Positions 1 through 26,374 of a stretch of DNA of 26,751 nucleotides are shown here, piece after piece. Position numbers and translations under genes: made by a program. Numbering within the stretch: position 1 is the stretch's first letter; the number at the start of each line of letters is the position of its first letter. Location: IMG/VR virus record IMGVR_UViG_2534681936_000019, one strand, 5' to 3'. The notes under the pieces were generated by a model, which searched no databases, was not told the origin of the DNA, and saw only the letters and a program-made list of their open reading frames with translations. The stretch is from a virus. Taxonomy: Duplodnaviria; Heunggongvirae; Uroviricota; Caudoviricetes.

Positions 1-303
1 GTCCTTTTTGTGTTCATCCACACTTTCAGGCCAGCGGATTGCCTCCGTCGCAAAGGTCCCCGACTTGTAATAGGTCAGTACCGTCTCTGTGCCTTCAAGC
101 GGCAGTACCAGTATGCCAACTGCACTACCGGCTTTCTGTCCGTCCCAGACCACCAGTTTCCCGCTGGCTTCATCCAGCATCAGGGGCGTCAGTGCCGGTG
201 TTGCCGAGGAAATCCCGCTGCTGCCTGTGGCGGTATGAGCCGGATCATTACCGGCAAAAATACGTACTTCCGCACGCTGTTCAGTGATGTTTTTCGTTAC
301 CAT
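1..303 (-). CDS. D: Head decoration protein (lambda gpD-like), 3' end runs off the window
   Basis: Minus-strand ATG at 303 gives MVTKNITEQRAEVRIFAGNDPAHTATGSS...LTPLMLDEASGKLVVWDG...YYKSGTF, matching the lambda D protein pattern; no stop before the window edge. Sits directly downstream of the C protease gene. Confidence 0.8.
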   Translation of the reverse strand, partial: MVTKNITEQRAEVRIFAGNDPAHTATGSSGISSATPALTPLMLDEASGKLVVWDGQKAGSAVGILVLPLEGTETVLTYYKSGTFATEAIRWPESVDEHKKD

Positions 304-339
304 ATTGTAAAAACCTCCTGTTGATGGTCAGCACTGACT

Positions 340-1845
340 TCATGGCATGGCCATGAGCATTTTCATGTCCGCATCACCGTCTGCTGACGTCTGTGGCACG
401 CCACCCTGTACCGCAGCCGGTGAATGGTTCGCCATGATGCGTTCAAACAGGGCGGTTGTGGATGCAGAGACCGGTTCTGCCTTACCTGATCCCGCAGCCA
501 GCACAGCCCGGGCGCTCTCCACAGTCATTCCCGGGCAGGCAGCCAGCTGTTCAGCCTGCGCCTCAGCCCCTTTTGCCTCATCCAGTGCCATGATCTGATC
601 ACGGAGTGAGGGTCCGGCATCCGCCTGCGGTGAAGCAGCCAGGATCGGGCGGGCTTTTTCCACCGTCATCTCCGGCATCGCCGCCAGCGTTGCCGCCAGT
701 TGTTCACGACCGTTCGCTTCTTCACACGCCATAATGCGATCGGCTTCACTCTGCGTGGATGCCACCGGCTGCTGCGGTGCCGCCGCGGCCAGAATCGCCC
801 GGGCCTGTTCAACGCTCATGCCCTGTTGTCCTGCCAGCATCGTGGCAAGCTGTTCACGTCCTTTCGCTTCCTGGCATGTCAGGATCCCCATCACTCGCTG
901 GTTCTCCTGCGCGGCGGCTTCCGTTGCAGTTAATTGCGGCATAGTGCCTCCTCTGACATTACTGTTCAGCGCCGTGGCCATCACACTGATGGCATCCGAC
1001 GCATTGATTAATTCATCCGCCAGCCCGGCCTCAATGCCGGACTGACCTTCAAAAACGGCGGCCTCTGTTCCCGTGACGGCATCAACAGACAACCCGGTAT
1101 ACATCGCCACTTTTTCGGCAAACATCCGGCGCGCCGCATCAATCCGCTGCTGCATGTCCTGGCGAACCTCTGCCGGCAACGCTTCAAACTGATTGCCATC
1201 CACCTTGTGCGCCCCTGAGTAAATCAGCGTGATATCCACACCGGCCTGCGCCAGATGACCGGCATAGCTGACATGGCTCATCATCACGCCAATGGAGCCG
1301 ATACGGGATGTCTGGGTAACCAGCCGTCGGGAGCAGGCCGACGCCAGCAGCATGGCTGCAGAACAGGCCGTGTCATTGCACAGTGCCCAGACCGGCTTCT
1401 GCTGACGGAGGCGGTAAATCATGTCAGCGCAGTCAAACGCGCCGGCGGCCTGCCCGCCCGGACTGTCAATGTCCAGCAGTACGCCCCGCACCTGGCTATC
1501 TGCCATTGCCTGCTGAAGACAGGCGACAATGCCGTCATAGCCAGTCATTCCGGAAAATGGCCGCATCCCCCCCAGCCGGTGCACCAGCGTGCCGGTCACC
1601 GGCAGTACAGCAATACCGTTCACCACCCGGTAAACACGGGCCGGTCGTTTACCTCCGGCCATGTACTCGTCCGTTTCAGCCAGCATTCCGGGAGCATCAA
1701 GCTGTACCTGCTGCTGTGGTACCGAAAGACTTGCTGCCCCCATCTCGCGCCCGAGCGCGCAAAAGAAAACCCGCGCATAGGCGGGCTCCAGAAGCAGCGG
1801 TTCATTGAATGCTGCGGCAATAATGTGTGAAAGATTACGTCTCAC
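340..1845 (-). CDS. C: Prohead maturation protease / scaffold (S49 SppA-ClpP-like peptidase, lambda gpC family) with a repeat-containing C-terminal scaffold domain
   Basis: 501-aa ORF in lambda order after the portal gene; protease-like N-terminal two thirds; C-terminal part carries repeated ~36-aa units (IMAxxEAxGREQLAxxLAxxPxMTVExARxILAA). Confidence 0.85.
   Translation of the reverse strand: MRRNLSHIIAAAFNEPLLLEPAYARVFFCALGREMGAASLSVPQQQVQLDAPGMLAETDEYMAGGKRPARVYRVVNGIAVLPVTGTLVHRLGGMRPFSGMTGYDGIVACLQQAMADSQVRGVLLDIDSPGGQAAGAFDCADMIYRLRQQKPVWALCNDTACSAAMLLASACSRRLVTQTSRIGSIGVMMSHVSYAGHLAQAGVDITLIYSGAHKVDGNQFEALPAEVRQDMQQRIDAARRMFAEKVAMYTGLSVDAVTGTEAAVFEGQSGIEAGLADELINASDAISVMATALNSNVRGGTMPQLTATEAAAQENQRVMGILTCQEAKGREQLATMLAGQQGMSVEQARAILAAAAPQQPVASTQSEADRIMACEEANGREQLAATLAAMPEMTVEKARPILAASPQADAGPSLRDQIMALDEAKGAEAQAEQLAACPGMTVESARAVLAAGSGKAEPVSASTTALFERIMANHSPAAVQGGVPQTSADGDADMKMLMAMP
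435..945 (-). repeat. In-frame tandem repeats (three full and one partial ~36-aa unit) inside the C-terminal scaffold region of gene C
   Basis: Protein-level repeats MGILTCQEAKGREQLATMLAG..., IMACEEANGREQLAATLAAMPEMTVEKARPILAA..., IMALDEAKGAEAQAEQLAACPGMTVESARAVLAA..., FERIMANHSP... Confidence 0.5.
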
Positions 1846-3432
1846 GTGGTGTTGTCTCCTCTTCCGGCCTGCGACTCTCCGCTATCTGCTGCTGATACGC
1901 CTGCGCTATCCACACCGGACGTGAGAGTCCGGCTTTTTCCCGCTCTGCAGATTCCCTGACCTGCTGGCGGAAAATGTCCTGATAATCCTCGCCCATCAGC
2001 GCCAGCTCTTTCTCATACGTGCTCAGTCCGGCCTCAATGCGCATCACCGATTCCTGAACCTCCTTGAGCCCGTCAATGGCCATTCTTCCGGCTCCAATCC
2101 ACTCAGCCCGTGACCAGGACTGATCGCGCCTGATAAAAATCAAAACGTTGCCCGTGGCGGACGAATAATCCCCCGAAGAAAGTGCCTCTTCCAGCCAGCA
2201 GGAAAACATCTGCGTGGCCAGCCGGGGACGCAATAAATTTTCGCCGCCCCATAAAATAGCGCCACGACTCATTGGCGGATGCGCGGGCACTTGAATAACT
2301 GACCTTCGAGTAATCACGGGACAACTGTTCGTAGGAAACGCCAAGACCGGCGGCGATATACCGCAGCAGCGCCTGTTCAAGCGCCGAAAATCCATTGTCT
2401 GAATCCTGCGCGGTCTGAAGTTTCAGATCATCACCGGGGAAAGGTGCGGAATTTTGACACCGCCCAGCGTCACGCTATTCGTGTCATACCAGGTGGAGAA
2501 CTTATCCAGAATATTAATAAGCGAATTATCCTTCTGACCCCTGCGGCGCACCGGCGATATATTCAAAGGCCTTTTCGGTATCAAGGTCACTTTCAATCGT
2601 CGCTGCATACATCGCCTTCACTATGGCCGACTGAAGCTGTGTTGCCTGACAGGGAATCGAGCATCTTCAGCCGTTCCATTACGCTGTAAAACTGATTGGC
2701 CCCACGGGTCTGCCCGTCCTCCACCGGCTCGAAAATATGCAGCATGGCCGGACGCCCGGTGGGAAGTTCACGCGGGATCCGTTCCCATCGTCCACTCCCG
2801 GAGCGAGGAAAATCATCCTCACAGATATGGTACGCAACGGCACGACCATATCGATCGACCTCCACACCGGCCCGCAGAAAACGGTTCCCCATACCGTGTC
2901 CTGGCGTGTCCACCCGTTTCGGACTCACGGCTTTAAAACGCGTACGAAACAGTTGCGTGCTCTCCGTATCCCAGACCGGCTGCACAAAGATTTCGCCGTT
3001 AAACGCATGAACGCCCACACCTTCACGAATAAATTCCGTAAACGTGCGTTTTCCTTCCACGTCGATCTCGCCAGACATCCCTTCTGCGTATTCTGACCAG
3101 GCCGCCTCCACCTCATCGACAAAACTTTTTGCCGCGGTCTCCCGCATCCCCAGCCAGCGCCAGTTCGGACGGTAGCTGATCAGAAACATATGCCCGACAA
3201 TATGATCCTTATGCAGGGCCACCGCATTGGCCGCTATCCCGTTATTGCGCACCAGATCATCTGCCCGGGCATTCCCCAGACGCAACGCAGGCAGCAGGGC
3301 TGCATCGGCACTCTGCGCCGGTGGCAACCACTCCGCCATTTGCCCGCCAAATCCTGCACCGCCCCCGTTGTAGCTGAGACTCTCACGAAGCGGAACGCCG
3401 TTCACATCAATCAGGACAGGCGTTCGTTTCAT
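1835..3432 (-). pseudogene. B: Portal protein (lambda gpB family) interrupted by about six frameshifts clustered between ~2100 and ~2660
   Basis: The N-terminal 279 aa (2593..3432) and C-terminal 186 aa (1835..2395) match gpB (GGGAGFGGQ, GNARADDLVRNNG, FEPVEDGQTRGANQFYSVME, ...RMAIDGLKEVQESVMRIEAGLSTYEKE). The gpB-like reading in between switches frame repeatedly (ORFs 2423..2608 and 2103..2324 hold gpB-like pieces VTLGGVKIPHL, VSYSSARASANESWRYFMGRRKFIAS). Confidence 0.8.
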
Positions 3433-3635
3433 AACCTCACTCCCAGCGGACGACGGCGACGCCGGGTTGTCCCCAGTACCGACTCCGCATCATTGATCGC
3501 CCGGTTAAGCTCATCCAGAGAAGCCGCCGTATATTCAATTCTGCGACCATCTTTCTGGACAGACACCACCCGTTTACCGGTTAATAAATCAAGGCGCGCC
3601 TGACGCAGCGCCTGCAGTTCAGCGACTGTAACCAT
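3429..3635 (-). CDS. W: Head-tail joining protein (lambda gpW family)
   Basis: 68-aa ORF with LLTGKRVVSVQKDGRRIEYTAASLDEL and a basic C-terminus, matching lambda W (68 aa); positioned between terminase and portal. Confidence 0.85.
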   Translation of the reverse strand: MVTVAELQALRQARLDLLTGKRVVSVQKDGRRIEYTAASLDELNRAINDAESVLGTTRRRRRPLGVRL

Positions 3636-5547
3636 TCACTCCTCCGGACAGCTTCGCTGCCAGTTCTTTCAGGGTTGGCCGGGTCGTCTCTTCTTCCCGG
3701 GATTTTGCCAGTACAGCCAGATCAAGCTGCCAGCGTTGCACGGACACACGTAATGCCGCGTAGGCATACACCAGGCAGTCCAGCGCTTCGTTACGCCGCT
3801 TTTTGTTATCCCACAGCAGACGCATCTTTCCTTTTTCCCACTTCTCCACAAGCTCTTCCGCTACCAGTTGCTGCGCCTCTGTCTGCGAAAAAATCTCCGG
3901 ATCATCAGGAAAACGGATGGCATACGACGTGGCTTCATCCGCAGGCGTGGGATCGGCTTTCATACGGGCATAGAGAATTTCTTTTGCGGTGTCCGTCCCC
4001 ACTTCACACAGATACACGCCCCGCTGATTGCGGGTTTTCGGCATGGTGATCACCGGCTTGCCATAGACAGACGCGCCCTTTACCGGCAGCACCCGGAAAA
4101 CACCGTGTTTTTTTGATCTCTGATAAACAATTTCACCATCGATCCCCCCGGTGTCCCAGCAGACACGGGAAATAGTCATTTCGGTGCCATCCGCATGGCG
4201 GTATTTTTTGTTGATCGCCGCATCCACACGTAACAGCGTCTCTTCCTCATCAGGACGCCCCATAATGATGATTTTATCCACCAGAAAGGCTTCCTCTCCC
4301 GGAGCCCATCCCCAGACATACATCTCAAAACGGTTTCGCTGCGAGTCAATGCCCGCCGTCAGATAAACCACCCGGGCAGGCACCGCCGCCGTGTAACGCA
4401 CCACCTTATCCATCAGTACCTGGTGATCGAGTTTTTCGCCCACGGCCTCTTCCCAGGTCTCGCCCAGCGTGGTGTTCACAAAGGTTTTCAGGCCGTTGGG
4501 ATCTTTCAGTGCATCCAGCCAGTCATAGACAATCTGTACCCAGGTGGTGAACGGACTGTACGCCGTCCAGATATGGAACGTGATGGAGCGCGGCGGCGGA
4601 ATTTCATCACCCCGGGCGCTGAAAAACGTCAGACCGTCACGGGTCCACATGCCCGTGTTTTCACAGATCCACCGCCCGTTACTCTGGTCAAGCTCAGACT
4701 GATGGATCACACAGCCATGATGCTCACAAAGGTAGAAAACACTTTCTGGCTTATTCTTCTCCCACTTAAGACCGAAAGGCGAGGCATCATCGCCAAATTT
4801 CAGATACTGCTCCTCCCCACAGTGCGGACAGGGCACATAAAAACGCATGAAGTGTGCCGACTCGTTAGCGGCTTTTTCGATCTGGCAGGTGCCTTTGATT
4901 TTAGGCGTCGAGCCGCGAATGGATTTTGGCCACACCGACCCCTCAATACGCTTATCCCCCAGCAGGGTTGGCGAGCCCTCTTTTTCGACATCCGGCTCGA
5001 ACGAGGAAAGTTCGTCATAGCAGACCACGTCCACGGATTTTTCACGGTAGTTTTTGGCGGCAGCGCCGCCCAGGCACCAGAAACCGACGCCCGATGAAAA
5101 GCGTTTCAGCGTGAGAGTATTGTCACGATGTTTACGACCCAGCCATGGGGAAAGGTCTTTCAGGCATGGCACGTTCCGAATCGTCGCCTCCACGTGAGAC
5201 TTCATAAAATCTTCAGCGGCAGAATCCGTGGGCTGAAAAAGCAGACTGTTTCGGGATTTATGCTCAATAAAATACCCGACCACCCCCAGCAACATCTTTG
5301 TATAGCCAACACGGGCAGATTTAATCAGGTTAACCGTGCGAACCTGGTCGTTACCCATACAGTTCATAATGGCGATCTGGAATGGCAGCGTTTTCCATTC
5401 TCCCTCACCATATGAAGATTCTTTAGGCAGATAATAATTTTGATCAGCCCATTCAACTGCCGTCATTGGTACAACCCTGACCAGAGGCTGCAGCGCAACC
5501 GAAACGGCAGCCATCATATTATTCAGTTGTTGCTCTGATATATTCAT
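3619..5547 (-). CDS. A: Terminase large subunit (lambda gpA family)
   Basis: Near-collinear match to lambda gpA from MNISEQQ... (AVEWADQNYYLPKESSYGEGEWKTLPFQ, KNYREKSVDVVCYDELSSF, CPHCGEEQYLKFGD, WDTGGIDGEIVYQRSKKHG). Start set at the internal MNISEQQ ATG (5547), which overlaps the Nu1 stop as in lambda; the ORF track begins 19 codons upstream. Confidence 0.95.
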   Translation of the reverse strand: MNISEQQLNNMMAAVSVALQPLVRVVPMTAVEWADQNYYLPKESSYGEGEWKTLPFQIAIMNCMGNDQVRTVNLIKSARVGYTKMLLGVVGYFIEHKSRNSLLFQPTDSAAEDFMKSHVEATIRNVPCLKDLSPWLGRKHRDNTLTLKRFSSGVGFWCLGGAAAKNYREKSVDVVCYDELSSFEPDVEKEGSPTLLGDKRIEGSVWPKSIRGSTPKIKGTCQIEKAANESAHFMRFYVPCPHCGEEQYLKFGDDASPFGLKWEKNKPESVFYLCEHHGCVIHQSELDQSNGRWICENTGMWTRDGLTFFSARGDEIPPPRSITFHIWTAYSPFTTWVQIVYDWLDALKDPNGLKTFVNTTLGETWEEAVGEKLDHQVLMDKVVRYTAAVPARVVYLTAGIDSQRNRFEMYVWGWAPGEEAFLVDKIIIMGRPDEEETLLRVDAAINKKYRHADGTEMTISRVCWDTGGIDGEIVYQRSKKHGVFRVLPVKGASVYGKPVITMPKTRNQRGVYLCEVGTDTAKEILYARMKADPTPADEATSYAIRFPDDPEIFSQTEAQQLVAEELVEKWEKGKMRLLWDNKKRRNEALDCLVYAYAALRVSVQRWQLDLAVLAKSREEETTRPTLKELAAKLSGGVNGYSR

Positions 5548-6027
5548 CGAGTAAATCCGGTAATTTATCCCCTGCCCGCGCACACTGATTTGCCCCCTTA
5601 GCAATAAGGGTTTTCAGATGGTCAAGATGGCGCGGTGTTAAATCAGGAAACTGTCGCTGCATGGATAAAGGGATGGAATCAAGCGTACTGGATAACGCCA
5701 TTGCCAGCTTACTGAGGGCAAAAATACAGAACCCGGTGTCAATAAGTTTCCTTTTGACACCTCATTTTTTAACTGCTGTGTAACAGCCTGTTCTGCTGTC
5801 AGTTCCCATCTGGCAATAAGCAATTTCTCTTCATAGTCTTCTTTGCTATCGCCATCAGGCACATCGTTTTTACTTCTTCTCAGATACGATATGTAAAAAT
5901 CGCGCCAGGCATCCAGATCCAGTTGCCCTCGCTTATTCGAGATCGGGGCACCCGGTAATTTCTGCAATCTGCGAAGCTGGCGATCGGTCAGACTTAAATG
6001 CCTGGCAACTTCAGTCTGCGTAGCCAC
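5519..6027 (-). pseudogene. nu1: Terminase small subunit (Nu1 / NohA-like) with a single frameshift near 5750-5760
   Basis: N-terminal HTH part (5638..6027, MATQTEVARHLSLTDRQLRRL...) and C-terminal part (5519..5701, ...IPLSMQRQFPDLTPRHLDHLKTLIAKG, like lambda Nu1 LPLSVQRRFPELENRHVDFLK) lie in different frames. The frames join if one base is added in an A4 run (plus-strand T-run at ~5753-5756). Confidence 0.75.
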
Positions 6028-6180
6028 TCCTCACCTCGCAAAAACTCTCACCTCACAATCACAACAAAACCGGTCATGTCCGGTTTACATGTCTGTTTTT
6101 TGTTCATGTCCGGTTCACAGAAGACCTGTTTTTATATTTTTCATATAGTTAACTTGAAGAGAAACCGGACATGGATCCCG

Positions 6181-6250
6181 GAAAATTTTCATAAATAGCG
6201 AAAACCCGCGAGGTCGCCGCCCCGTAACCGGTCGGATCGCCGGAAAGGAC
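6181..6250 (-). other. cos: cos site: cosN core (12-nt cohesive end GGGCGGCGACCT, minus strand, at 6211..6222) with lambda-like flanks
   Basis: The minus strand reads GGGCGGCGACCTCGCGGGTTTTCGCTATTTATGAAAATTTTCC, which is the lambda left-end sequence, immediately upstream of Nu1; the other flank (CCGGTTACG on the minus strand) is lambda right-end-like. Confidence 0.85.
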
Positions 6251-6428
6251 CCACGAAATGATAATAATTATCATCTATATAAGGTTTATCACAACATGTG
6301 TGTACGCCATCAAACCACGAGAAATAATCAATTATGACGCAGGTATCGTATTAATTGATCTGCGTCAAATTAACGTAAAAGCAACTTCAGATAATACAAA
6401 TCAGCAACACTGAATATGGGGAAACATT

Positions 6429-6614
6429 ATGTCATCAAAGAACAGAACCCGCAGAACAACAACCCGCAACATCCGATTTCCAAACCAGATGATTGAACAA
6501 ATTAACATCGCTCTTGATCTGAAAGGTTCAGGAAACTTTTCAGCGTGGGTTATTGAAGCCTGCAGAAGAAGGCTGTCAACAGAGAGTTCGGGTATGAATT
6601 ACATAATTAAGTAA
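6429..6614 (+). CDS. Small ribbon-helix-helix-like protein (YlcI-like / DUF3950 candidate) in the lambda right-end region
   Basis: 61-aa ORF with basic N-terminus and IRFPNQMIEQINIALDLKGSGNFSAWVIEACRRRL; same position relative to cos/Nu1 as ylcI next to nohD in DLP12. Confidence 0.5.
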   Translation: MSSKNRTRRTTTRNIRFPNQMIEQINIALDLKGSGNFSAWVIEACRRRLSTESSGMNYIIK

Positions 6615-6746
6615 CATGGTGTTCACAGAACACGCAGTTACCGGACACATCAGTTTTCCATTCGCTCCCCGGCAGTACAGGCTTCCCCTCTGACGGGATA
6701 GCCTGAAAAAATAACACAGAAAATTATTTGTTATAATTAATATAAC

Positions 6747-6887
6747 TTACTCAAAAAAAAGCGACGAGAAAATCAGCATCAACGAACAATAAGCGCCAAT
6801 ACGTGATAACAAATGGCAGCCATATTTATCTGCAGTATAAGCAATGGACAGGATAACCACACCAGAAACCGTCAGCATAAAATCCAT
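6747..6887 (-). CDS. Candidate 46-aa hydrophobic small protein (absent from the ORF track, below size cut-off)
   Basis: ATG at 6887 with GGGGAAG about 7 nt upstream; translation MDFMLTVSGVVILSIAYTADKYGCHLLSRIGAYCSLMLIFSSLFFE; AT-rich region between Rz and cos. Confidence 0.25.
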   Translation of the reverse strand: MDFMLTVSGVVILSIAYTADKYGCHLLSRIGAYCSLMLIFSSLFFE

Positions 6888-7243
6888 TTGAACTTCCCCG
6901 GACAAAATCGACTCATCTAAAGATTTACAGCTCTTTTTATTATCAATATGTTAAAAGTAAAATAAACAGATGTTCAATAACACGAATACAAAAACGTGCT
7001 GAAATTCAATGAATCCATTTCTGTGTCATCAATTAATAGTGATAAACATCCGGCTTCTTCCACCATCGCACCGGACAGGCGACTATGAGGGGACAACGCC
7101 GCGCTCCGTTAACGCGGTAAACCCCGGTGTGTATCGTTTTTGATTATCCCCGCACACTCGCGCAGAAGAGTCTCCCTGTCGGGCTGCGGTCTCTGTTAAT
7201 GCAGGAATACGGCGACAATACCGCGCATGGATAATAAGGTCGC

Positions 7244-7468
7244 TCAACACACTGGCTGTAATGCAGCGGATACCATGCGGCATTTAGCGGCATTCATCGT
7301 ACACTCCACGGTTAGCTCTTCATTCGTGGCATTCACCTGAAAGGTCCGGGAGTGTAATTGCGTACATTTACCACTGAACGAACCTTCAACAAGAACACGA
7401 CCACGCTGCAAAATACGGAACGGAATTGTTCCCTGAAAAGGTTCTACGGTTACCCGTAATTTCTTCAT
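7244..7468 (-). CDS. Hypothetical 74-aa protein directly downstream of Rz
   Basis: [24 protein letters not shown]... whose start overlaps the Rz stop; no recognisable family. Confidence 0.35.
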
Positions 7469-7959
7469 GTATCCTCCGGATAATAAAAAGCCAGCTTAGT
7501 GCACTGAGTGCGGATATATTCCTGCGCCCCTTCCAGCTGCTTCTGCATTGTCATCAACCGTTCTCTGAGGATGAAATAATCCCGTTCAGCGGTGTCTGCC
7601 AGTCGGGGGCCGGTTGCATTATCCACGCTGGAGGTGCCGGTGGCTTCACGCACGGTACCGGGGCAGGTGGCGTTGACCCGCAGGCGCTTACGACCAGCGG
7701 CAACATCAGCGCGCAGAGTTTCAATTTCAGCTCTCGCATCGGCTAATTCCTTCGTGTATCTGGCATCAAGCGCAGCGACATCTCGCTGGCGCTGCTGCAT
7801 GTCAGTAATAGTGGCATTCGCCAGTTTCAGCTCACTGACTTTTTTATCGCGCTGCGCTTTGTAGGTGATGGCGTTATCGCGGTAATGATTCAGCCCCAGA
7901 CTAAGCACACCACAGGCTACCAGCAGGACAATAATCACCACACACAGAACACGGTTCAT
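7465..7959 (-). CDS. Rz: Rz inner-membrane spanin (i-spanin)
   Basis: From the internal start [40 protein letters not shown]...[25 protein letters not shown], near-collinear with lambda Rz; N-terminal TM helix. Confidence 0.85.
7554..7739 (-). CDS. Rz1: Rz1 outer-membrane lipoprotein spanin (o-spanin), embedded in Rz in the +1 frame
   Basis: [56 protein letters not shown]: lipobox plus proline-rich sequence matching lambda Rz1. Confidence 0.8.
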
Positions 7960-7960
7960 A

Positions 7961-8047
7961 TCACCACCAACGGATTGCCCAGACCAGAACAGCAATGGCC
8001 ACAATACGAATGGCAAATGCCATTGCCCGAATAAGTTCAGCACTCAT
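7961..8047 (-). CDS. Candidate 28-aa hydrophobic peptide immediately upstream of Rz
   Basis: [28 protein letters not shown]; stop adjoins the Rz ATG; sequence resembles the C-terminal segment of the neighbouring small ORF (RALAFAIKWVAVGIAV). Confidence 0.25.
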
Positions 8048-8058
8048 CTTTTTAAAGT

Positions 8059-8309
8059 TCACGATTTCAGCGCAATGACCAGTTTTGCCAGCCCATACAG
8101 CATCGGAGACACAGCAATACCAACAGCCACCCACTTAATAGCAAAAGCCAGCGCTCTGCTGATGTCATCAGTCACTGTCACCCCAGCAGCCCCGACGAAG
8201 ACAACATCACCCAGGCGAGGGACAGAAAAAGAGCAACCAGCATTAGTGAAAATGAAATACCGACAATCACACACAGGACCTTTGCCGGCGTTATGAGTTT
8301 GTCTGACAT
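8059..8309 (-). CDS. Candidate ~83-aa two-TM small membrane protein, frameshifted at a G-run
   Basis: ATG at 8309 with AAGGGG RBS gives MSDKLITPAKVLCVIVGISFSLMLVALFLSLAWVMLSSSG, then continues in another frame as ...GVTVTDDISRALAFAIKWVAVGIAVSPMLYGLAKLVIALKS (ORF 8059..8331). Confidence 0.3.
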
Positions 8310-8311
8310 AG

Positions 8312-8407
8312 CTACCCCTTAATTGCCACAATTAACTGGGATACTACCCATAAAAAAGGGATGCTCCAGACCAGCAAAAATTTCCAGTTTGGTAATTGAC
8401 TAATCAT
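8312..8407 (-). CDS. Candidate 31-aa single-TM peptide downstream of the endolysin
   Basis: Internal ATG at 8407 preceded by GGGAG about 9 nt upstream; MISQLPNWKFLLVWSIPFLWVVSQLIVAIKG. Confidence 0.3.
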   Translation of the reverse strand: MISQLPNWKFLLVWSIPFLWVVSQLIVAIKG

Positions 8408-8474
8408 GAGTCGCAACTCCCTAATCAGTTTGCTAAAATCAATCAAGGCAGCCTCCCATAGCTTACTGCCATAA

Positions 8475-8518
8475 AAACAAAACCCCGCTTGCTGCCAACA
8501 AACGGGGTTTTTACTTTT
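8475..8518. terminator. Intrinsic terminator hairpin downstream of the endolysin gene (T-tracts on both strands)
   Basis: AACCCCG ... CGGGGTT stem with a 15-nt loop, followed by TTTTTACTTTTAT on plus and TTTTGTTTTTAT on minus. Confidence 0.5.
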
Positions 8519-8601
8519 ATTCACTTACGTTTCGCCAGTTCGCAGGATTTCATGTTATCCGCCCGCGTGGCCATGCCTTATTTTTCAGCAAAATATTCTG
8601 C

Positions 8602-17544: not shown

Positions 17545-17823
17545 TTACCTCCAGATGCGTTGCTGGAATGTGCGGGACGGACGCGGTGGGCGCTCGGAGT
17601 ACGGCAGCCTGACGTAGATTATCCAGTGACGATAATCGAGGCTGAGGGCTTTCCTAAACTCATACCCACGTCTGCGGTAGTTCTGAATCAGCCATTCGGC
17701 CTGTTCTTCAGTGCATGGGGCGTGCCGGAACCAGTCAGATTTGAATGCATGAGAACGCCGCCCGTGCCTGCTGGCAAAGACGGCTGAATTATCAGAATTG
17801 TGTAGTCTGGAATTTTGCGCCAT
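17545..17823 (-). CDS. Hypothetical 92-aa protein (Rem-like position)
   Basis: ORF abutting the DUF968 gene; no recognisable motif. Confidence 0.4.
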   Translation of the reverse strand: MAQNSRLHNSDNSAVFASRHGRRSHAFKSDWFRHAPCTEEQAEWLIQNYRRRGYEFRKALSLDYRHWIIYVRLPYSERPPRPSRTFQQRIWR

Positions 17824-17892
17824 CGGCTTTCTCCGGTGGCACAGTGTTACTCAACAGGGGTTCAGCCCTGCGCTGAATTGTAGATGAATTCA

Positions 17893-18198
17893 CTAATCTT
17901 CAAAAGCAGAAAAACCAGCCTTAATCCCAGCTTCTTTCAGAGACGGCAACGATGTGACAAATTCATTTTCACGCAAAATAAAACCATCCGTCACAAGTCC
18001 ATCCACAAAGTAAATTAACGCAGCTCCACTCTTCCTATGTAGAGACTGTAAACATTTAATACGGCAGTGGCTGACAATAGCGCCATTCTCAACGCGCACA
18101 GTATAGAGGCCATCTTCACTAAAAATTTCACGTAATTCTTCGATTTTCATCAACAGAATCCTTCCAGATAAATAGCACTCCCCCTGTTCGGGGTCCAT
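17893..18198 (-). CDS. Hypothetical protein (likely start at internal MKIEELREIF, about 85 aa)
   Basis: ORF only; no recognisable motif. Confidence 0.35.
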   Translation of the reverse strand: MDPEQGECYLSGRILLMKIEELREIFSEDGLYTVRVENGAIVSHCRIKCLQSLHRKSGAALIYFVDGLVTDGFILRENEFVTSLPSLKEAGIKAGFSAFED

Positions 18199-18269
18199 CC
18201 CTCTTCTCCCTGCGCGCTACTTAAGTATTTTTGATTCTATTCTGGCACCGTCCAAAACTTCAAACACGT

Positions 18270-18304
18270 TGAAAATAAAAACAAAAAACCCGCCGAAGCG
18301 GGTA
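18270..18304 (-). terminator. Intrinsic terminator after the HTH-ImmA gene; copy 1 of a duplicated 20-nt hairpin
   Basis: Minus strand ACCCGC TTCG GCGGGT followed by TTTTTTGTTTTTATTTT; plus-strand 20-mer AAAAACCCGCCGAAGCGGGT at 18284-18303 recurs at 20119-20138. Confidence 0.6.
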
Positions 18305-18307
18305 TAC

Positions 18308-19414
18308 TCAAACAATCTGGAAAATATTTCTTGGATTTGTAATAGGTCTGTTGATGGAGAACAACTCACGAATTAAATCTTGGCTCAAGCCAGTTTTCAT
18401 AAGAATTCTTAGCCAGGTTGCATCATCCAGCATTTCAATCGCCTCGGCCAGCATGCCGGGTTCTTCAGGGCGCAAAAGTTCATCACCAGGTTCAACTCTC
18501 GTATACCCTCTGGAATTAAGATGCATATAGCCAGTTCTTGCCTGTTCCTGGGTCAATAAGCCTAATGCGCTGGCTCGATAAATACACATTTTAAGGCTGA
18601 TTTTCCATCTAAGTTTAAATTCAACCAGAGCATTCCAGTCGAATTGCTTACCTCGTATTCGTGGAAATTCTTTAATGAAAGATAACCTGGGAACTAATAA
18701 GGCGCTCGAAAAGTGATCGGCTTGTGATTCCGTAAGTTTATCACCTGTCGTTATGCCCTCATGCATTACTAAATGCCCTAATTCATGACCTAAATCAGAG
18801 CGAAATCTACATATGCTTTTTTTAACATTGTTCCTGATGATAACAGGCCTGTTATTGTGAACAGTAAAAGCATCAACACGATCATCGACTCCCGTAACAT
18901 GCGCAACGATTACCCCTAAACTCTCCGCCAATTTAACCATTGATGATATAGGGCCAAGACCTAAATTCCAGGCACGGCGACAATCTTCTGCCACTCGCTC
19001 AATATCATTCGGAGTAAGTAATTCAGCCCCTGGGTGCTCCGGTATGTTAACGTCAGGAAATTCGATTTCACCTTCAACAGCAGAAATTATAATATTAAGA
19101 ATCTCAGCCCTGGCCAATACACTATTAGTCAGCGTTTGAGTCCTGGACTTCTTACTCCGAAAATGGCAGACATCACTTTCCAGAGCGTATTTTCGTTCAG
19201 TAAAAAGAAAACTGGACTTAATCATAAGCGCTGAAGATATTAACTCAAGACATTGCTCCGATGGCCTGCACCCCTTCTCCAGTTTGCTAACAAATTGCTT
19301 TGTCTTGCCAATTTTTTCGGCTAACTCTTCACAAGAAAGCCCAACAGCCATTCTCGCTAGTTTGAGCTTATCACCCCGATACTCAGTGAAGTTATTCACC
19401 TGATGTTCCATCAC
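18308..19414 (-). CDS. XRE-family HTH fused to ImmA/IrrE-type zinc metallopeptidase (COG2856-like)
   Basis: N-terminal HTH (LKLARMAVGLSCEELAEKIGKTKQFVSKLEKG) and HEXXH motif (SDLGHELGHLVMHEG) plus a ~130-aa C-terminal extension. Confidence 0.85.
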   Translation of the reverse strand: MMEHQVNNFTEYRGDKLKLARMAVGLSCEELAEKIGKTKQFVSKLEKGCRPSEQCLELISSALMIKSSFLFTERKYALESDVCHFRSKKSRTQTLTNSVLARAEILNIIISAVEGEIEFPDVNIPEHPGAELLTPNDIERVAEDCRRAWNLGLGPISSMVKLAESLGVIVAHVTGVDDRVDAFTVHNNRPVIIRNNVKKSICRFRSDLGHELGHLVMHEGITTGDKLTESQADHFSSALLVPRLSFIKEFPRIRGKQFDWNALVEFKLRWKISLKMCIYRASALGLLTQEQARTGYMHLNSRGYTRVEPGDELLRPEEPGMLAEAIEMLDDATWLRILMKTGLSQDLIRELFSINRPITNPRNIFQIV

Positions 19415-20042
19415 TGCTCACATCCAAATCTTTATCCTTCGTACGCCGACGAAGAGGCACCTTATTAATCTCCGCTTCGTCAGGGAGTGTGTTATAATCA
19501 AGAGGCATAAGCGGCATCGATGCTGTAGATTGATGAGAAACTATACTAATCTGAGCACCATAAGTATTAAATCCAACAAGAGCTACCTCCCAACGAGGCA
19601 GTGTGGACTCTAATTCACCATCGCCCTCTTCGGATAAAAAAGGCTCAGCTATGACTCGCCATGTAATATCTTGCTCAGCCTCAACATCACCAAACAATGA
19701 GAGCTGCTCATACTCTACTTTATTTCGACGCAGACGATGTTTCTTTTTGGGGTTATTAATGCAATCTTTGGTAAATTGTAGCGGAACTTTATTTAAAGCA
19801 ACTACATAGTCCAACCCCTTGGAAATCATCTCAAGGCCAGGAATTGCATCTTCATTTTGAATAAGATGATTTCTGACCCAATCATAAGCCCTTACACCTT
19901 CAGACCAGTTGCTGTCTAATGCGTGCTTATGATAGTACAGCTGCTCAAGTACGTTAGCGATCTCCGCCAACAAGTGGCGAACATAGTTTTCAGCAAGATA
20001 AGGTTGAAATTCCCAACAAGGAGCTAACTGATTTTCATTCAT
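19392..20042 (-). CDS. Uncharacterised acidic 216-aa protein, translationally coupled (23-nt overlap) to the downstream HTH-ImmA gene
   Basis: Clean ORF MNENQLAPCWEFQPYLAENYVRHLLAEIANVLEQLYYHKH...; no recognisable domain. Confidence 0.6.
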   Translation of the reverse strand: MNENQLAPCWEFQPYLAENYVRHLLAEIANVLEQLYYHKHALDSNWSEGVRAYDWVRNHLIQNEDAIPGLEMISKGLDYVVALNKVPLQFTKDCINNPKKKHRLRRNKVEYEQLSLFGDVEAEQDITWRVIAEPFLSEEGDGELESTLPRWEVALVGFNTYGAQISIVSHQSTASMPLMPLDYNTLPDEAEINKVPLRRRTKDKDLDVSSDGTSGE

Positions 20043-20114
20043 TTCAAGTTTCGCTTTTTTTAGAATTCGTAAACCACATATTTTCGCATTTTTCTATTTT
20101 TGTCAACCAGACTA

Positions 20115-20140
20115 ATGCAAAAACCCGCCGAAGCGGGTTA
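20115..20140 (-). terminator. Intrinsic terminator after hok; copy 2 of the duplicated 20-nt hairpin
   Basis: Minus strand AACCCGC TTCG GCGGGTT + TTTTGC; shares the 20-mer AAAAACCCGCCGAAGCGGGT with 18284-18303. Confidence 0.6.
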
Positions 20141-20207
20141 AGTGCGGGTGCGTTGAGGATGCCTGGCACATCAGAGGTGGCGGGAGATTACTCCCCCGCC
20201 GGGTCTC

Positions 20208-20363
20208 TTACTCCTCAGGTTCGTAAGCTGTGAAGACAGCGACCTCCGTCTGGCCGGTTCGGATTCGTACCTCGCAGAGGTCTTTCCTCGTTACCAGTGC
20301 CGTCACTATGACGGTTAAACAGATGACGATCAGGGCGATTAACATCGCCTTTTGCTGCTTCAT
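20208..20363 (-). CDS. hok: Hok-family type I toxin (HokD/RelF-like, 51 aa)
   Basis: MKQQKAMLIALIVICLTVIVTALVTRKDLCEVRIRTGQTEVAVFTAYEPEE, a Hok/Gef sequence; below the ORF-track size cut-off. Confidence 0.9.
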   Translation of the reverse strand: MKQQKAMLIALIVICLTVIVTALVTRKDLCEVRIRTGQTEVAVFTAYEPEE

Positions 20364-20421
20364 AGCCTGCTTCTCCTTGACCTTTTGGTCCGTAAGAGGC
20401 TAACCTACATGTGTCTAGCAT
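20215..20421 (-). CDS. mok: mok-like overlapping reading frame (modulation of killing)
   Basis: 68-aa ORF in another frame covering almost all of hok, as in hok/mok/sok loci. Confidence 0.55.
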   Translation of the reverse strand: MLDTCRLASYGPKGQGEAGYEAAKGDVNRPDRHLFNRHSDGTGNEERPLRGTNPNRPDGGRCLHSLRT

Positions 20422-20575
20422 GAAATTGGCCTCAGATTAATGTTAAGCGTCTTGCAGGACGCGTAATGTTAACTGGGGCTTTTCTCTATCTGCCTTTGGT
20501 GTTCATGCCCGAGGCAGATAGCCTCAAGCACCCGCAGCCATTCTACTTAACTACCGTTACCTCGCCAATGTGAAA

Positions 20576-20797
20576 TCAGTCAGAAAGGCGATCCATAAGA
20601 ACAATAGCAAGACAATAAATCGCCATTACAGCCGTAATAGCCAGCGCACATTTGAGAACCAGCACCACACAACCTCCTGTATTGGACGTACACCAGTCCT
20701 GATGAATATGAGGCTGTCTCGTCAGTGATTCAATACAACTATTGGGTATAGTTTCTCTGATTTTTTCTGTGGAAATGGGGCTCAACCCACTAGTCAT
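20576..20797 (-). CDS. Hypothetical ORF; probably only a 29-aa hydrophobic peptide (GTG start, 20576..20665) is real
   Basis: AGGAGG about 7 nt upstream of an internal GTG gives VLVLKCALAITAVMAIYCLAIVLMDRLSD. Confidence 0.25.
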   Translation of the reverse strand: MTSGLSPISTEKIRETIPNSCIESLTRQPHIHQDWCTSNTGGCVVLVLKCALAITAVMAIYCLAIVLMDRLSD

Positions 20798-21117
20798 TTA
20801 ATACGCAAAGTCCGACACAAGCTAACCTTCTAGTCCGCTTTGAGCGAGGAGCGGACCTTGTGTAAAAATCCCCATACCGGTTGATCGCGCTGAATGTTAG
20901 GTTCATAAACGACACAGGGTACATCGTAATGCTGCTCTATTGCTTCGTAAGTGATTCCCAATCGCTGCATCACTCGCTGAGAAGGAGTTCGACAACAGCC
21001 ACTAAATAGTTGTGCATAGAGAACGACTGGAAAAGGCCGTAGGAACTTACAAATCTCAATTCACGGTAGAGTATGATATGGGTATTCAATATAAATACAG
21101 CCCTCAAAGGTTTAAAT

Positions 21118-21473
21118 ATGAACGGAAGTGTTAAAAACAATCTATCGTCAAAAAAGTACAAGCTAAAAGAAAAATTTTGAATTTGAATCGCGAGCTTTCT
21201 AATGGAAAGATCACTCAGGCTGATTATTGTCTATACAAAAAACTGTTTGAAGACTACATTCAGGTATTAACATTTCAACACACAAGAATTTTTGTGGAAA
21301 AAGATTTAATAGAACTATCAAATCATCGAAGTGGAGTATTCATTACAACTCAGCATGATACATTAGTAAATAGACTTGACAAAATTGATTATGAAATTGA
21401 CAGATTAAAAAACTGTTTAAATAAAAAATTATCGATTACACAAAATTCACATCCCTATATTAGGATTTTCTAA
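21118..21473 (+). CDS. Hypothetical AT-rich ORF, possibly frameshifted (ATG at 21118 is in another frame from the 21177..21473 ORF)
   Basis: The 98-aa ORF has no in-frame ATG (TTG start); an ATG with upstream AAAGG lies at 21118 in another frame, and several A-runs sit between them. Confidence 0.3.
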
Positions 21474-21615
21474 GAGTACGACACCGTCACATTTAAATAT
21501 TATCTGTAGAGGTAAAATGACAGCCTGACGGCGGTATTTCATTGCGAAATGCTATTTAAAAGACCGCATTGAGCGGTCTTATGTATCTCACAACATATTA
21601 CAGAATGACTTTAAA

Positions 21616-23069
21616 CTATTGTTTTAATAACATTTCAAAATCCTCATTCCAGTGCGTGTTTTGTGAAATACGGGTATCAATTTCATCAAGCAGCATATCA
21701 TGAGAAAGTATGCTTAAAGGGTCATTCCCATTTTTACCAAAACGCATCGTAGTTTCTGCTATTTCCCAATCTTCTGCGCTGATTGATGGCTGTATTGCAT
21801 GGCAGTAGATAGCCTTCACATCCTTTTCATGACAGTCAAAATTATTGATGCTTTCTGCAATTTTACGAGCTCTTTCAATTTCGACAACTGGACCATGTAA
21901 AGTTTCATATGATATGTGCACAATTGTAGGGGTATTATCTGGAACCTGTCGTACCGCTTTGCTTAAGTGCGTTTTAATATCTTTTGCTTTTTTATTAATC
22001 GATTCCTCTGCTATACATTCCCAACGAGCACAGTAACCAGAGTGTATTCCAGTGCAAAAAATGTTAAGTATATCAACACCGTCGTCCGGACCTACTCGTA
22101 CAAGTCCTTTTGGGGCACAAAGATGAGTGTAATTTTCGCTGCTGCTAAAACTTCCGGCCAACAACGAAACCATCTGTGGAGAGTTCCATTTAACTATGTA
22201 TTTTTCAAAATGCTCATTGATATTTTTCATATCTATTCTATTAATCAGTATTATAATTTCATCATTTTCTATTCTCAGTGACTTTTTCGTCGAGATATTA
22301 GACTTTATTTCATTGAAGATTTTTGCTAAAATATATTCATCTGTATCTTTTACTTCAACCTTGAAAAGCACGTCTAAAAATATATTTTGTCTAGACTGAG
22401 TTAGAATAGGTACTAAATTGAGCCATCTTTGCCTCCATTCTCGACGCTCATTTTCAGAATATTCAGTCACTTTAGATAAACGCTTACATTCCACAAAAAA
22501 GCTTTCTTCACCTTTAGTAACTTTTAAATCAGGAGTTTTATTTAATGCTGTTTCTGGAATAAATTCTACTCTATAACCATTGCGCGCATACATAATCGCA
22601 ACAACTAATTCAAACAATGTTGAATCAGGTTGATTTATTTTACCGTTAAGAAATTCCGAAAGTTTTTCATCAATCCCAACAATTTTTTTTGCAAGCTCAA
22701 TATGTCTTCCAACAGCCGCAAAAAAGGGAAATACTCGGGCTGATTGCGCTAACTCGCTAACTAAAGGCCGTTCATGTAAGCATTCTACAAGAAAAAGATA
22801 CCATGCAACCCAATCCTCATGAAATGCCACCCTATTTTTTGGCTCTTCCATACTCTTCATTGCTTGGTCAAAATTCTTATAGGTGTTATCTTCCTGTTCT
22901 CTGAAGTACTTGACTACATTTTTTTGCGAGTCTCCCAAGTATCCTTTTCCAGATAAGATAAAAACCAGTCCAATGCGATTTTCGTATGATGATGCCAGGG
23001 ACTGGTATCCGTTGCTGCAAAAATCTCTTGTAGTTCTTTTGAATATTCCAATGTCTGTGTGTTAGCCAT
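21616..23069 (-). CDS. PD-(D/E)xK nuclease-like protein (~484 aa if a poly-A frameshift at 22919-22925 is bridged), AT-rich cargo gene
   Basis: Motif block ELVVAIMYARNGYRVEFIPE...TPDLKV...ESFFVECKRLSK (E, PD, ExK). ORF track gives 21616..22938 (TTG start); an ATG at 23069 with GAGGT RBS opens MANTQTLEYSKELQEIFAATDTSPWHHH..., which joins the main frame if the A7 run were A8. Confidence 0.6.
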
Positions 23070-23440
23070 TTTGACCTCATCATTGTTAATTTATGAGATT
23101 TTACAACTTATAATGCATCTTCCAGATCGAGCCTCCAAGTAAGAAATCAGGCTAAATCAGACAGATATGTAATATATCCCTAGTCAATTAGGCAGTCCAC
23201 CCATAAATCCTAACAGTACGAAAATGGTTGGAACGTTATCCTAGGTTACTGCTCATCGTTTCCTTATGACCTCAATATATAAATATCCCAGCTCTTGCGG
23301 TTCGATTGTATGATTGACAGTCCGCTCCTGGCACAAAGCGGACAACCACGCCAGATCTACCCTGTGCCATGAAAAATGAGAATGTCAATTCACTCCTGAA
23401 CTAATGCTTTTTAATCTAGTAACGTCTAAAATACCTAACA

Positions 23441-23842
23441 TTATCCCTGATAAAATGCCAGTATGCGCTGCATAACTTCACTCATCCGGCACTCGCGACA
23501 GATTATGTTTAGGCGACTGTCGTAGCGACGTATTTCTCCATCAGGTAACGACCAGATAAGGTCCGGATCAACCACAGCTGTTTTCTTCACCTTTGCCCTC
23601 GATAGTTTTTTGCGGGCGTTTTGCCAGTCCTTACGCGCCTGTTCAGACGGGAATAACCCGTAGCCGGAGTTGTATACATCGCCACTGGCTACCAGCTCTC
23701 TGGCAAGAACGCTCATCAGATATCTAGTCGCACCTGTTTTAGCTTCCAGTTGCCGTAACGTCTCACGACCGCTCTGGCGCACGAGTTCCACCACCTGCCC
23801 TTTAATTTTTTCCCGCTCTTCTTGTGTAAAAACTTTTGCCAC
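23441..23842 (-). CDS. Hypothetical 133-aa early-region protein
   Basis: ORF MAKVFTQEEREKIKGQVVELVRQSGRETLRQLEAKTGATRYLMSVLARELV... (possible winged-helix); downstream of the replication gene. Confidence 0.45.
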   Translation of the reverse strand: MAKVFTQEEREKIKGQVVELVRQSGRETLRQLEAKTGATRYLMSVLARELVASGDVYNSGYGLFPSEQARKDWQNARKKLSRAKVKKTAVVDPDLIWSLPDGEIRRYDSRLNIICRECRMSEVMQRILAFYQG

Positions 23843-23882
23843 AAGTCCCCCTTAAAATTACCTCATGACCTGAAATCAAAAC

Positions 23883-24902
23883 TTATCCTCTGAAACCAGG
23901 CGGAATTTCTGTATCCGGTTCAGAAATATGATTCACACAACGCTGTACAGGTGAACGTCCCAGGCGGATGACCAGTTCGTCCCATTTTTCGCGGAGTTTT
24001 GACGGGCTCATGATGTTTTTTACCCAGAATGGATCCCGCTGTACCCGACCAAACATTTCGCAAATTTGTCTGTGGCTTCTGCCATCCAGCATCCGCATTG
24101 TGCGCACGTCATTGGCCCAGGCTGTCCAGTTAGGCTCTTTTGGTCGCATGATCTCTCCATCGTCGCTGGCAGCCTGTTCGTAAAGGTTCACGATCCGCCC
24201 CCAAATCCACTGCGCACACGCCAAATCCTCCCTGCTACCCCACTGGCGTTTTTTCACACTAAACACAACCGCGTCGGGGTTCCGGGTTAAAAAATCCTGT
24301 TCAGTCGTCTGCGGGTCCGGTTGCGAAGCTTCCGGACGAAAAGTGTTTTTATTCTCTGTAGTAATCTCTGTTGTATTCTCTGTAAGATCATCAGGCCATT
24401 TTGACCCGATGACATTGGGTCGTTTTGAACCAATGGAGCGTTTCATTTTGACCTCTTCCATCGTGTCATTTTGACCTGATGTAGCGGCGCATTTTGAATC
24501 GATGGATTCGTTCAATTTGCCACCATCTAAAAGCTCGCTCCCATAGTTGATCGTGTAGAAATTGGTCATATCGCGCTTTGATTTATTGAGCTTTTCACAA
24601 CGCAAAAGCCCCAGCGTTTTCAGACTTGCAAACGCGCGCTTTAACGTTGACTCTGACCAGAATGGGAACTGTTCCAGCCATTGTTCCGTTGTGTTATAAA
24701 TCCAGCGAACACCATCACATTCCATACCGGAGTTGGTATCTCTCAACCAGTAGTGCAGTTGTTGCAAAACAATGGCTTCGTTTAAGCCGATTTTCATTGC
24801 CAGCTGCGTGTTTATAACCAGTGGGCGTTCAGCAAAAAGAAGACTCATAATTCCATCCAGCTTTTTGTTGGTATTGCTGTCGATACGCAAGCTTGAAAGC
24901 AA
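23883..24902 (-). CDS. Putative phage replication initiator / replisome-organiser protein
   Basis: 339-aa ORF in the position of lambda O; N-terminal HTH-like segment (LVINTQLAMKIGLNEAIVLQQLHYWL), acidic linker with TEN repeats, conserved C-terminal domain. Confidence 0.5.
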   Translation of the reverse strand: MLSSLRIDSNTNKKLDGIMSLLFAERPLVINTQLAMKIGLNEAIVLQQLHYWLRDTNSGMECDGVRWIYNTTEQWLEQFPFWSESTLKRAFASLKTLGLLRCEKLNKSKRDMTNFYTINYGSELLDGGKLNESIDSKCAATSGQNDTMEEVKMKRSIGSKRPNVIGSKWPDDLTENTTEITTENKNTFRPEASQPDPQTTEQDFLTRNPDAVVFSVKKRQWGSREDLACAQWIWGRIVNLYEQAASDDGEIMRPKEPNWTAWANDVRTMRMLDGRSHRQICEMFGRVQRDPFWVKNIMSPSKLREKWDELVIRLGRSPVQRCVNHISEPDTEIPPGFRG

Positions 24903-25564: not shown

Positions 25565-25641
25565 AGCCCCCTCTTGTTAGATTTTTCTAACATTATTGTG
25601 CGCGGGATACCTAAGTCAAGAAAAATTAGAATTACCTAACT

Positions 25642-26373: not shown

Positions 26374-26374
26374 T

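What the first reader, a model, noticed from the sequence alone, without database searches (positions are those of the whole stretch)
2100..2660. About six frameshifts clustered in a 550-bp stretch of the portal gene
The gpB-like reading requires about six frame switches between ~2100 and ~2660, whereas the rest of the portal gene and the adjacent 2-kb terminase and 1.5-kb protease genes are intact. At least two switches are at G-runs (GGGG near 2555, GG versus GGG near 2430) and some lie at GATC or CCTGG sequences. Either the prophage is defective (a portal-null prophage cannot package DNA) or this is a localised low-quality or modification-affected stretch of an assembly.
Basis: seen in the sequence. 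Interest (0 to 1): 0.55.

Follow-up and report, generated by a model that had tools for sequence, protein, structure and literature searches.

The report
Sequencing-error cluster in draft portal gene
The broken prophage portal gene is almost certainly a patch of sequencing errors in a 2012 draft assembly of E. coli DEC5A, because the closed genome of the same strain has the gene intact at the same place.

Summary
The lambda/phage-21-type portal gene (minus strand, 3432..1835) carries seven single-base indels: six insertions at 2119, 2149, 2181, 2227, 2537 and 2649, and one deletion after 2442. It also has one substitution at 2524. All eight lie within 531 nt, and the other ~1070 nt match the reference exactly.

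The window is bases 1-26751 of draft contig AIFQ01000018.1 of E. coli O55:H7 DEC5A. The closed DEC5A genome (PacBio plus Illumina) has an intact 1593-nt portal at the syntenic site. It has an identical copy in a second prophage.

Removing the indels restores that protein except for P303S. None of about 3000 copies in 1861 complete E. coli genomes matches the stretch better than DEC5A's own intact copy does.

The indel-to-substitution ratio is 7:1, against 0:169 for natural variation in this gene. The patch lies in an exact two-copy repeat, 2 kb from a contig end. The draft also undercalls homopolymers elsewhere, and a sister draft shows the same pathology.

Verdict: a sequencing or assembly artefact, not a defective prophage and not a DNA-modification effect. 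Interest is low.

The parts
1835..3432 (-). Lambda-family portal gene (phage 21 gene 4 / lambda gpB type). It reads as eight out-of-frame segments in this draft.
   Evidence: It is 99.5% identical to the intact 1593-nt portal WP_000831776.1. Pfam PF05136 matches the intact protein at E=3e-101, and residues 29-263 of the 279-aa N-terminal fragment at E=4e-60.
2119..2649 (.). The 531-nt error patch: six 1-nt insertions, one 1-nt deletion and one substitution.
   Evidence: Deleting the six inserted bases and restoring the lost one gives a 530-aa ORF identical to the DEC5A closed-genome portal except P303S.
2119..2119 (+). Inserted A between G and C (CCAGG^CTGATC). It is not in a homopolymer and is the only indel next to Dcm and Dam sites.
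2149..2149 (+). Inserted T (T to TT).
2181..2181 (+). Inserted A (AA to AAA).
2227..2227 (+). Inserted G (GGG to GGGG).
2439..2442 (+). One A missing (AAAA to AAA).
   Evidence: A sister draft (L008 position 9578) has a 2-nt loss at the homologous spot.
2524..2524 (+). G to A substitution, giving Pro303Ser in the repaired protein.
   Evidence: All four intact relatives carry the reference base.
2537..2537 (+). Inserted A between G and C (TCTG^CCCC).
2649..2649 (+). Inserted A between G and C. It disrupts the reference CCTGCAGG.
1..5994 (.). The part of the contig that is an exact two-copy repeat in the closed DEC5A genome. It covers the head and packaging genes shared by two lambdoid prophages. 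The contig starts at base 1, inside the repeat.
   Evidence: Apart from the draft-private differences, window 3-5994 is identical to both L004 and L007. Window coordinates equal contig coordinates of AIFQ01000018.1.
5519..6027 (-). Small terminase subunit gene, split by a 1-nt deletion at 5749 (TTTT to TTT on the + strand).
340..1845 (-). S49 head protease/scaffold gene. Intact, 501 aa.
3429..3635 (-). gpW-like head-tail joining gene. Intact, 68 aa.
3619..5547 (-). Large terminase subunit gene. Intact, 642 aa.

Best explanation
The seven frameshifts are errors in the consensus of a 2012 draft assembly (E. coli DEC5A, contig AIFQ01000018.1), not mutations in the bacterium. The patch lies 2.1-2.65 kb from a contig end. 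It sits inside head genes that occur as an exact repeat of at least 7.8 kb in two prophages of this strain. Draft assemblers place few or ambiguous reads in such regions.

The most likely immediate cause is inferred, not shown. About 530 nt of consensus probably rested on one or very few low-quality flow-based (pyrosequencing-type) reads, so the raw-read error profile was written into the contig. That profile is roughly 1-1.5% error, with insertions commoner than deletions and both far commoner than substitutions, getting worse along the read. The real gene encodes an intact 530-aa lambda-family portal.
For: Shown:
1. The exact 279-aa N-terminal fragment is on record on one contig only, AIFQ01000018.1 of GCA_000249495.2. 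It is named EHV24489.1 [Escherichia coli DEC5A].
2. The closed DEC5A chromosome NZ_CP038394.1 is syntenic with the whole window. It was made from PacBio RS II with Illumina/Pilon polishing (PMC9413875). It differs at only 25 alignment columns, and its portal is intact there.
3. A second prophage in the same closed genome carries a copy that is 100% identical over window 3-5994.
4. FDAARGOS_946 has the same ST and matches window 13001-26751 at 100.0% (rounded). It also has intact portals at both loci.
5. The repaired ORF equals WP_000831776.1 apart from P303S.
6. The best match to the 591-nt stretch among 3025 places in 1861 complete E. coli genomes is 98.6% over a 586-nt span. That is what an intact copy lacking all eight private changes gives.
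7. The spectrum is 7 indels to 1 substitution. Among intact relatives of the same gene it is 0 indel columns to 169 substitutions (Fisher P=8e-12).
8. Outside the patch, the draft's isolated differences from both closed genomes are all single-base homopolymer undercalls: T4 to T3, A9 to A8, A8 to A7 and T8 to T7.
9. Another draft from the same protein-name series (AIGY01000004.1) has 9 indel columns against 2 substitutions across the small terminase, large terminase and portal genes, measured against its closest closed genome. Its portal is split into four ORFs.

Consistent with the inferred cause:
- Published 454 Titanium raw-read errors are 1.07% in total: insertions 0.54%, deletions 0.36%, mismatches 0.09%. 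Reads are 500-592 nt and insertion errors rise along the read (PMC3116506).
- Here there are 8 errors in 531 nt (1.5%): 6 insertions, 1 deletion, 1 mismatch. Four of the eight lie in the last 110 nt when read in the gene's direction.
Against: - I could not see reads, quality values or the assembly's platform record. That the DEC drafts were 454-based rests on my memory of Hazen et al. 2012 (J Bacteriol 194:3026), which could not be opened.
- The two portal copies are identical in the closed genome. Short-read polishing there could in principle have overwritten a truly damaged copy using reads from the intact one.
- FDAARGOS_946 carries a ~5% divergent 4-kb patch at the syntenic site. The exact allele at this locus is therefore not equally certain in all assemblies.
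- A collapsed two-copy repeat should have higher read depth, not lower. Why this particular 531 nt was thinly supported is unexplained.
- Three of the insertions share one context, an A inserted between G and C on the + strand. That looks systematic rather than random.
Confidence: 0.93

Rival explanations
1. The frameshifts are real. The DEC5A stock sequenced for the draft carries a portal pseudogene at this prophage, so the prophage cannot package DNA. The closed genome either came from a different stock or had this copy 'repaired' by polishing with reads from the identical second copy.
For: The two copies are identical over at least 6 kb in the closed assembly, which is the situation in which Pilon can homogenise repeats. 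This prophage has other annotated pseudogenes in the closed genome: a frameshifted TrmB-family gene and a partial YdfR gene.
Against: - Seven indels with only one substitution in 531 nt, and no change in the other ~1070 nt of the gene. Natural variation in this gene shows no indels among 169 substitutions.
- No complete genome matches the stretch better than an intact copy lacking all eight changes would.
- The rest of the window differs from the closed genome essentially only by homopolymer undercalls.
- A sister draft shows the same indel-rich pattern in the same genes.
- No known mutational process in E. coli gives a 0.5-kb patch of mostly +1 insertions, three of them outside any homopolymer.
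Confidence: 0.04
2. The consensus is a chimera of reads from diverged paralogous prophage copies. Where two copies differ by a SNP, the multiple alignment keeps both alleles and creates a spurious 1-nt insertion.
For: The patch lies in a multi-copy prophage module. At 2537 the window reads TCTG-A-CCCC. The closed DEC5A genome has TCTGCCCC there and the divergent FDAARGOS_946 allele has TCTGACCC, so 'both alleles kept' fits that one site. The draft also differs structurally from both closed genomes at 10626-10818, which hints at paralogue mixing elsewhere.
Against: Only 1 of 7 indels coincides with a SNP between the known alleles, and none of the other 36 SNP positions of that allele in 2090-2553 shows up in the window. 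In the closed DEC5A genome the two copies are identical here, so there is nothing to mix.
Confidence: 0.03
3. Base-calling errors are caused by DNA methylation (Dam GATC, Dcm CCWGG or a phage methylase) on a single-molecule sequencing platform.
For: The insertion at 2119 lies between a CCAGG and a GATC. The insertion at 2649 disrupts a CTGCAG present in the reference.
Against: The GATC at 2426 and the CCWGG at 2489 are unaffected, and six of the seven indels are not at such sites. Methylation motifs occur throughout the 26.7-kb window without errors. The draft's other errors are long-homopolymer undercalls. From my own knowledge, the accession dates to about 2012, when amplification-based platforms that erase modifications were standard.
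Confidence: 0.01

Closest known systems
Phage 21 gene 4 / lambda gpB portal protein (Pfam PF05136, Phage_portal_2)
   Same: The underlying gene is 96% identical in DNA to the phage 21 portal. It sits in the canonical order: small terminase, large terminase, gpW, portal, S49 protease/scaffold, decoration protein.
   Different: Nothing biological. The window's copy only looks disrupted because of seven single-base indels private to this draft.
Indel-rich consensus errors of flow-based (454-type) or unpolished long-read draft assemblies in repeated prophage regions
   Same: Indels far outnumber substitutions, with homopolymer undercalls elsewhere in the contig. The patch is in an exact repeat next to a contig end. 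The same pattern occurs in a sister draft (L008) and in a long-read-only assembly (L009) (error rates from PMC3116506).
   Different: Three of the seven indels are non-homopolymer insertions sharing one context, G^C. The platform of this draft was not verified here.
Genuine prophage pseudogenes (cryptic lambdoid prophages such as Qin or Rac)
   Same: A structural gene is interrupted by frameshifts in an integrated lambdoid prophage.
   Different: Genuine decay accumulates substitutions, deletions and IS insertions, and is shared by related strains. Here the changes are private to one assembly, are almost all +1 or -1 indels, and are absent from the closed genome of the same strain.

Membership tests
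Lambda-family phage portal protein (PF05136) | Significant full-length match to the family profile | tested here: met
   The intact syntenic copy scores 339.5 bits (cut-off 32.9) over profile positions 2-354 of 354. The window's 279-aa fragment covers profile positions 2-227.
Lambda-family phage portal protein (PF05136) | Position in a lambda/phage-21-type head module, between gpW and the S49 protease/scaffold and downstream of the terminase genes | tested here: met
Lambda-family phage portal protein (PF05136) | A single uninterrupted reading frame in this sequence | tested here: not met
   There are seven frame switches in 2119-2649. The frame is restored by reversing the seven indels, and it is uninterrupted in the closed genome of the same strain.
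Sequencing/assembly artefact | Absent from an independent high-accuracy assembly of the same strain | tested here: met
   The closed DEC5A genome NZ_CP038394.1 has an intact portal at the syntenic site and in the second copy. Strain identity comes from EHV24489.1 [Escherichia coli DEC5A].
Sequencing/assembly artefact | Error spectrum unlike natural variation and like a known platform error profile | tested here: met
   The spectrum is 7 indels to 1 substitution, against 0 to 169 in natural variation. Homopolymer undercalls occur elsewhere. The profile agrees with 454 Titanium raw-read errors.
Sequencing/assembly artefact | Low read depth or low quality at the site in the original data | not testable with these tools
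   Reads and quality values are not available here.
Genuine prophage pseudogene | Disruptions shared by related genomes or confirmed by independent sequencing | tested here: not met
   The best match to the stretch among 3025 copies in 1861 complete E. coli genomes is 98.6% over 586 nt. That is what an intact copy without any of the eight changes gives. The fragment protein is on record on one contig only.

The most novel reading that the evidence does not exclude
The DEC5A stock used for the 2012 draft really carries a 0.5-kb patch of seven +1/-1 frameshifts in one of its two portal copies. That would point to a localised, indel-biased mutational event, such as an error-prone repair tract, which the closed assembly then masked by repeat homogenisation.
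Probability: 0.03. Interest if true: 0.5.

Novelty: not a real feature. Interest (0 to 1): 0.04.

Why it matters
It matters only as a caution. Frameshift clusters in repeated prophage genes of older draft assemblies should not be read as prophage inactivation. Annotation built on this contig already carries the result: GenBank protein EHV24489.1 is the truncated 279-aa 'portal', and EHV24493.1 is the truncated 129-aa small terminase. A survey of 'defective prophages' that included such drafts would overcount pseudogenes. There is no new biology.

Tried and rejected
1. 'Both alleles kept' chimera model. I compared each indel with SNPs between the two known portal alleles. Only the site at 2537 fits, so I rejected it as the general cause.
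2. Methylation-motif model. I counted GATC, CCWGG and CTGCAG sites in 2100-2660 and found no consistent association.
3. Looking for the indels in other genomes. No complete E. coli genome or phage record shares them.
4. Verifying the draft's sequencing platform. Hazen et al. 2012 (PMC3370608) is not held, and searches for the accession prefix found nothing relevant.
5. Inversion hypothesis. I first thought FDAARGOS_946 differed from DEC5A by an inter-prophage inversion swapping the head modules. I rejected this. The two portal genes are in direct orientation, and the difference is a 4.1-kb internal patch at window 1847-5995.
6. DUF1327/YdfR gene. I first thought it was intact in the draft but truncated in the closed genome. 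The DNA is identical there, so this is only a difference in gene calling.

Full report
**What is in the sequence**

The minus strand of window 3432..1835 holds a lambda/phage-21-type portal gene. It is flanked by a gpW-like gene (3429..3635), the large terminase gene (3619..5547) and the S49 protease/scaffold gene (340..1845).

A megablast search found 1881 complete E. coli records and 20 phage records with this gene. The reference length is always 1593 nt, against 1598 nt here.

I aligned the window copy with the intact copies of FDAARGOS_946, closed DEC5A, phage 21 and PhiR12_1. The window differs from the closest ones at exactly eight places:
- Six 1-nt insertions, at + strand positions 2119 A, 2149 T, 2181 A, 2227 G, 2537 A and 2649 A.
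- One 1-nt deletion, AAAA to AAA after 2442.
- One substitution, G to A at 2524.

There is no difference in the remaining ~1070 nt of the gene. A frame walk shows eight segments and seven frame switches. Reversing the seven indels gives a 530-aa ORF identical to WP_000831776.1 except for P303S.

**Is it more than chance?**

Across the whole 26.7-kb window, the draft differs from the closed DEC5A genome by 25 alignment columns:
- the eight changes above;
- four isolated homopolymer deletions at 5749, 6760, 15696 and 22925;
- a rearranged intergenic stretch at 10626-10818.

Seven of the 11 isolated indels fall within 531 nt. The binomial P is 4e-10, and the indel rate there is about 86 times the rate in the rest of the window.

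The mutation spectrum is also unnatural. The patch has 7 indels and 1 substitution. Three intact relatives of the same gene differ from the reference by 169 substitutions and no indel columns (Fisher P=8e-12).

**Where the window comes from**

The exact 279-aa N-terminal portal fragment (2593..3432) is on record on a single contig. That contig is AIFQ01000018.1 of GCA_000249495.2, and contig coordinates equal window coordinates, so the window starts at base 1 of the contig. GenBank names the fragment EHV24489.1, 'phage portal protein, lambda family [Escherichia coli DEC5A]'.

The closed DEC5A chromosome, NZ_CP038394.1, was made from PacBio RS II reads polished with Illumina reads using Pilon (PMC9413875). 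It is syntenic with the whole window and has an intact portal at the same locus.

FDAARGOS_946 has the same sequence type and matches window 13001-26751 at 100.0% (rounded). It also has intact portals at both of its loci.

The best match to the 591-nt stretch among 3025 places in 1861 complete E. coli genomes is 98.6% over 586 nt. That is what an intact copy lacking all eight changes gives.

**Why here**

The closed DEC5A genome has a second lambdoid prophage at 2.55-2.59 Mb whose head proteins carry the same accessions. At the DNA level the two copies are 100% identical over window 3-5994 and continue to match beyond the contig start. This makes an exact repeat of at least 7.8 kb.

The error patch therefore lies inside a long exact repeat, 2.1-2.65 kb from the end of a draft contig. 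Draft assemblers place few or ambiguous reads in such regions.

The draft's other isolated differences are all homopolymer undercalls: T4 to T3, A9 to A8, A8 to A7 and T8 to T7. That is the signature of flow-based sequencing.

A second draft carrying the same DEC-type protein names, AIGY01000004.1, shows the same pathology. It has 9 indel columns against 2 substitutions across the small terminase, large terminase and portal genes, measured against its closest closed genome. Its portal is called as four ORFs.

**Likely immediate cause (inferred)**

The patch has 8 errors in 531 nt, or 1.5%: 6 insertions, 1 deletion and 1 mismatch. Published raw-read errors for 454 Titanium total 1.07%, made up of insertions 0.54%, deletions 0.36% and mismatches 0.09%. 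Those reads are 500-592 nt long and their insertion errors rise along the read (PMC3116506).

Read in the gene's direction, four of the eight errors fall in the last 110 nt. A consensus resting on one or very few such reads would look exactly like this.

I could not verify the platform. That the DEC drafts were 454-based comes from my memory of Hazen et al. 2012, which is not held in the library.

**Rivals**

1. *A real pseudogene, masked in the closed genome by repeat homogenisation during polishing.* This is possible in principle because the two copies are identical. It is contradicted by the mutation spectrum, the privacy of the changes to one assembly, the same pattern in the sister draft, and the lack of any known process that produces such a patch.
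2. *A chimeric consensus of diverged paralogues.* Only the site at 2537 fits a 'both alleles kept' model.
3. *Methylation-induced miscalls.* Only one indel adjoins Dam or Dcm sites, and the other GATC and CCWGG sites in the stretch are clean.

**Comparison with what is known**

The gene is an ordinary member of the lambda portal family, PF05136. The apparent disruption belongs with the known indel-rich consensus errors of older draft assemblies in repeated prophage DNA. Nothing here is new biology. I rate the novelty category 'not a real feature' and interest about 0.04.

The residual novel reading is a genuine localised indel-hypermutation tract in one stock of DEC5A. I give it about 3%.

Noticed in passing
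window 5749 (small terminase gene, 5519..6027, minus strand): A 1-nt deletion (TTTT to TTT on the + strand) splits the small terminase into 129-aa and ~47-aa ORFs. The same A4-to-A3 change at the homologous site appears in two other draft contigs (L008 and L010; protein named for DEC12A and DEC11D) and in a long-read assembly (UARW01000010.1). No complete E. coli genome matches window 5600-5900 at 100%; the best is 99.7%. It is probably an error, but its recurrence at one short run is odd.
   Followed up: partly
window 10626-10818: The intergenic stretch between the SASA-esterase gene and the holin gene differs from both closed genomes (DEC5A and FDAARGOS_946). The draft has ~140 extra nt (10641-10780) and a different terminator-like hairpin. 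The best full-length match to window 10450-10950 in any complete genome is 98.8%. This may be a chimeric join with a paralogous prophage in the draft.
   Followed up: partly
L005 (FDAARGOS_946) 3880-8068, equivalent to window 1847-5995: FDAARGOS_946 is otherwise identical to DEC5A in this prophage. At the syntenic locus it carries a ~4.1-kb patch covering the portal, gpW and both terminase genes that is about 5% divergent (~200 SNPs). Its gpW is annotated with an internal stop. In closed DEC5A the same patch is identical to the second prophage. Either a gene conversion occurred between prophages in one lineage, or one assembly homogenised the repeat.
   Followed up: partly
window 6760, 15696, 22925: Single-base undercalls of long homopolymers (A9 to A8, A8 to A7, T8 to T7) relative to both closed genomes. 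This is typical flow-based sequencing error.
   Followed up: yes
L009 (GCA_900448305.1, UARW01000010.1) 3500-12390: This long-read assembly of another E. coli strain has about 19 homopolymer-type indel columns across the same prophage head module. They split the large terminase into four ORFs and the portal into two. It is another example of assembly-made 'pseudogenes'.
   Followed up: partly
window ~11600-11900 (equivalent to L004 14935-15184): The closed DEC5A genome annotates a prophage-borne tRNA cluster (Ile, Arg, Arg) upstream of the SASA-esterase gene, as in Stx-type lambdoid phages. I did not examine it.
   Followed up: no
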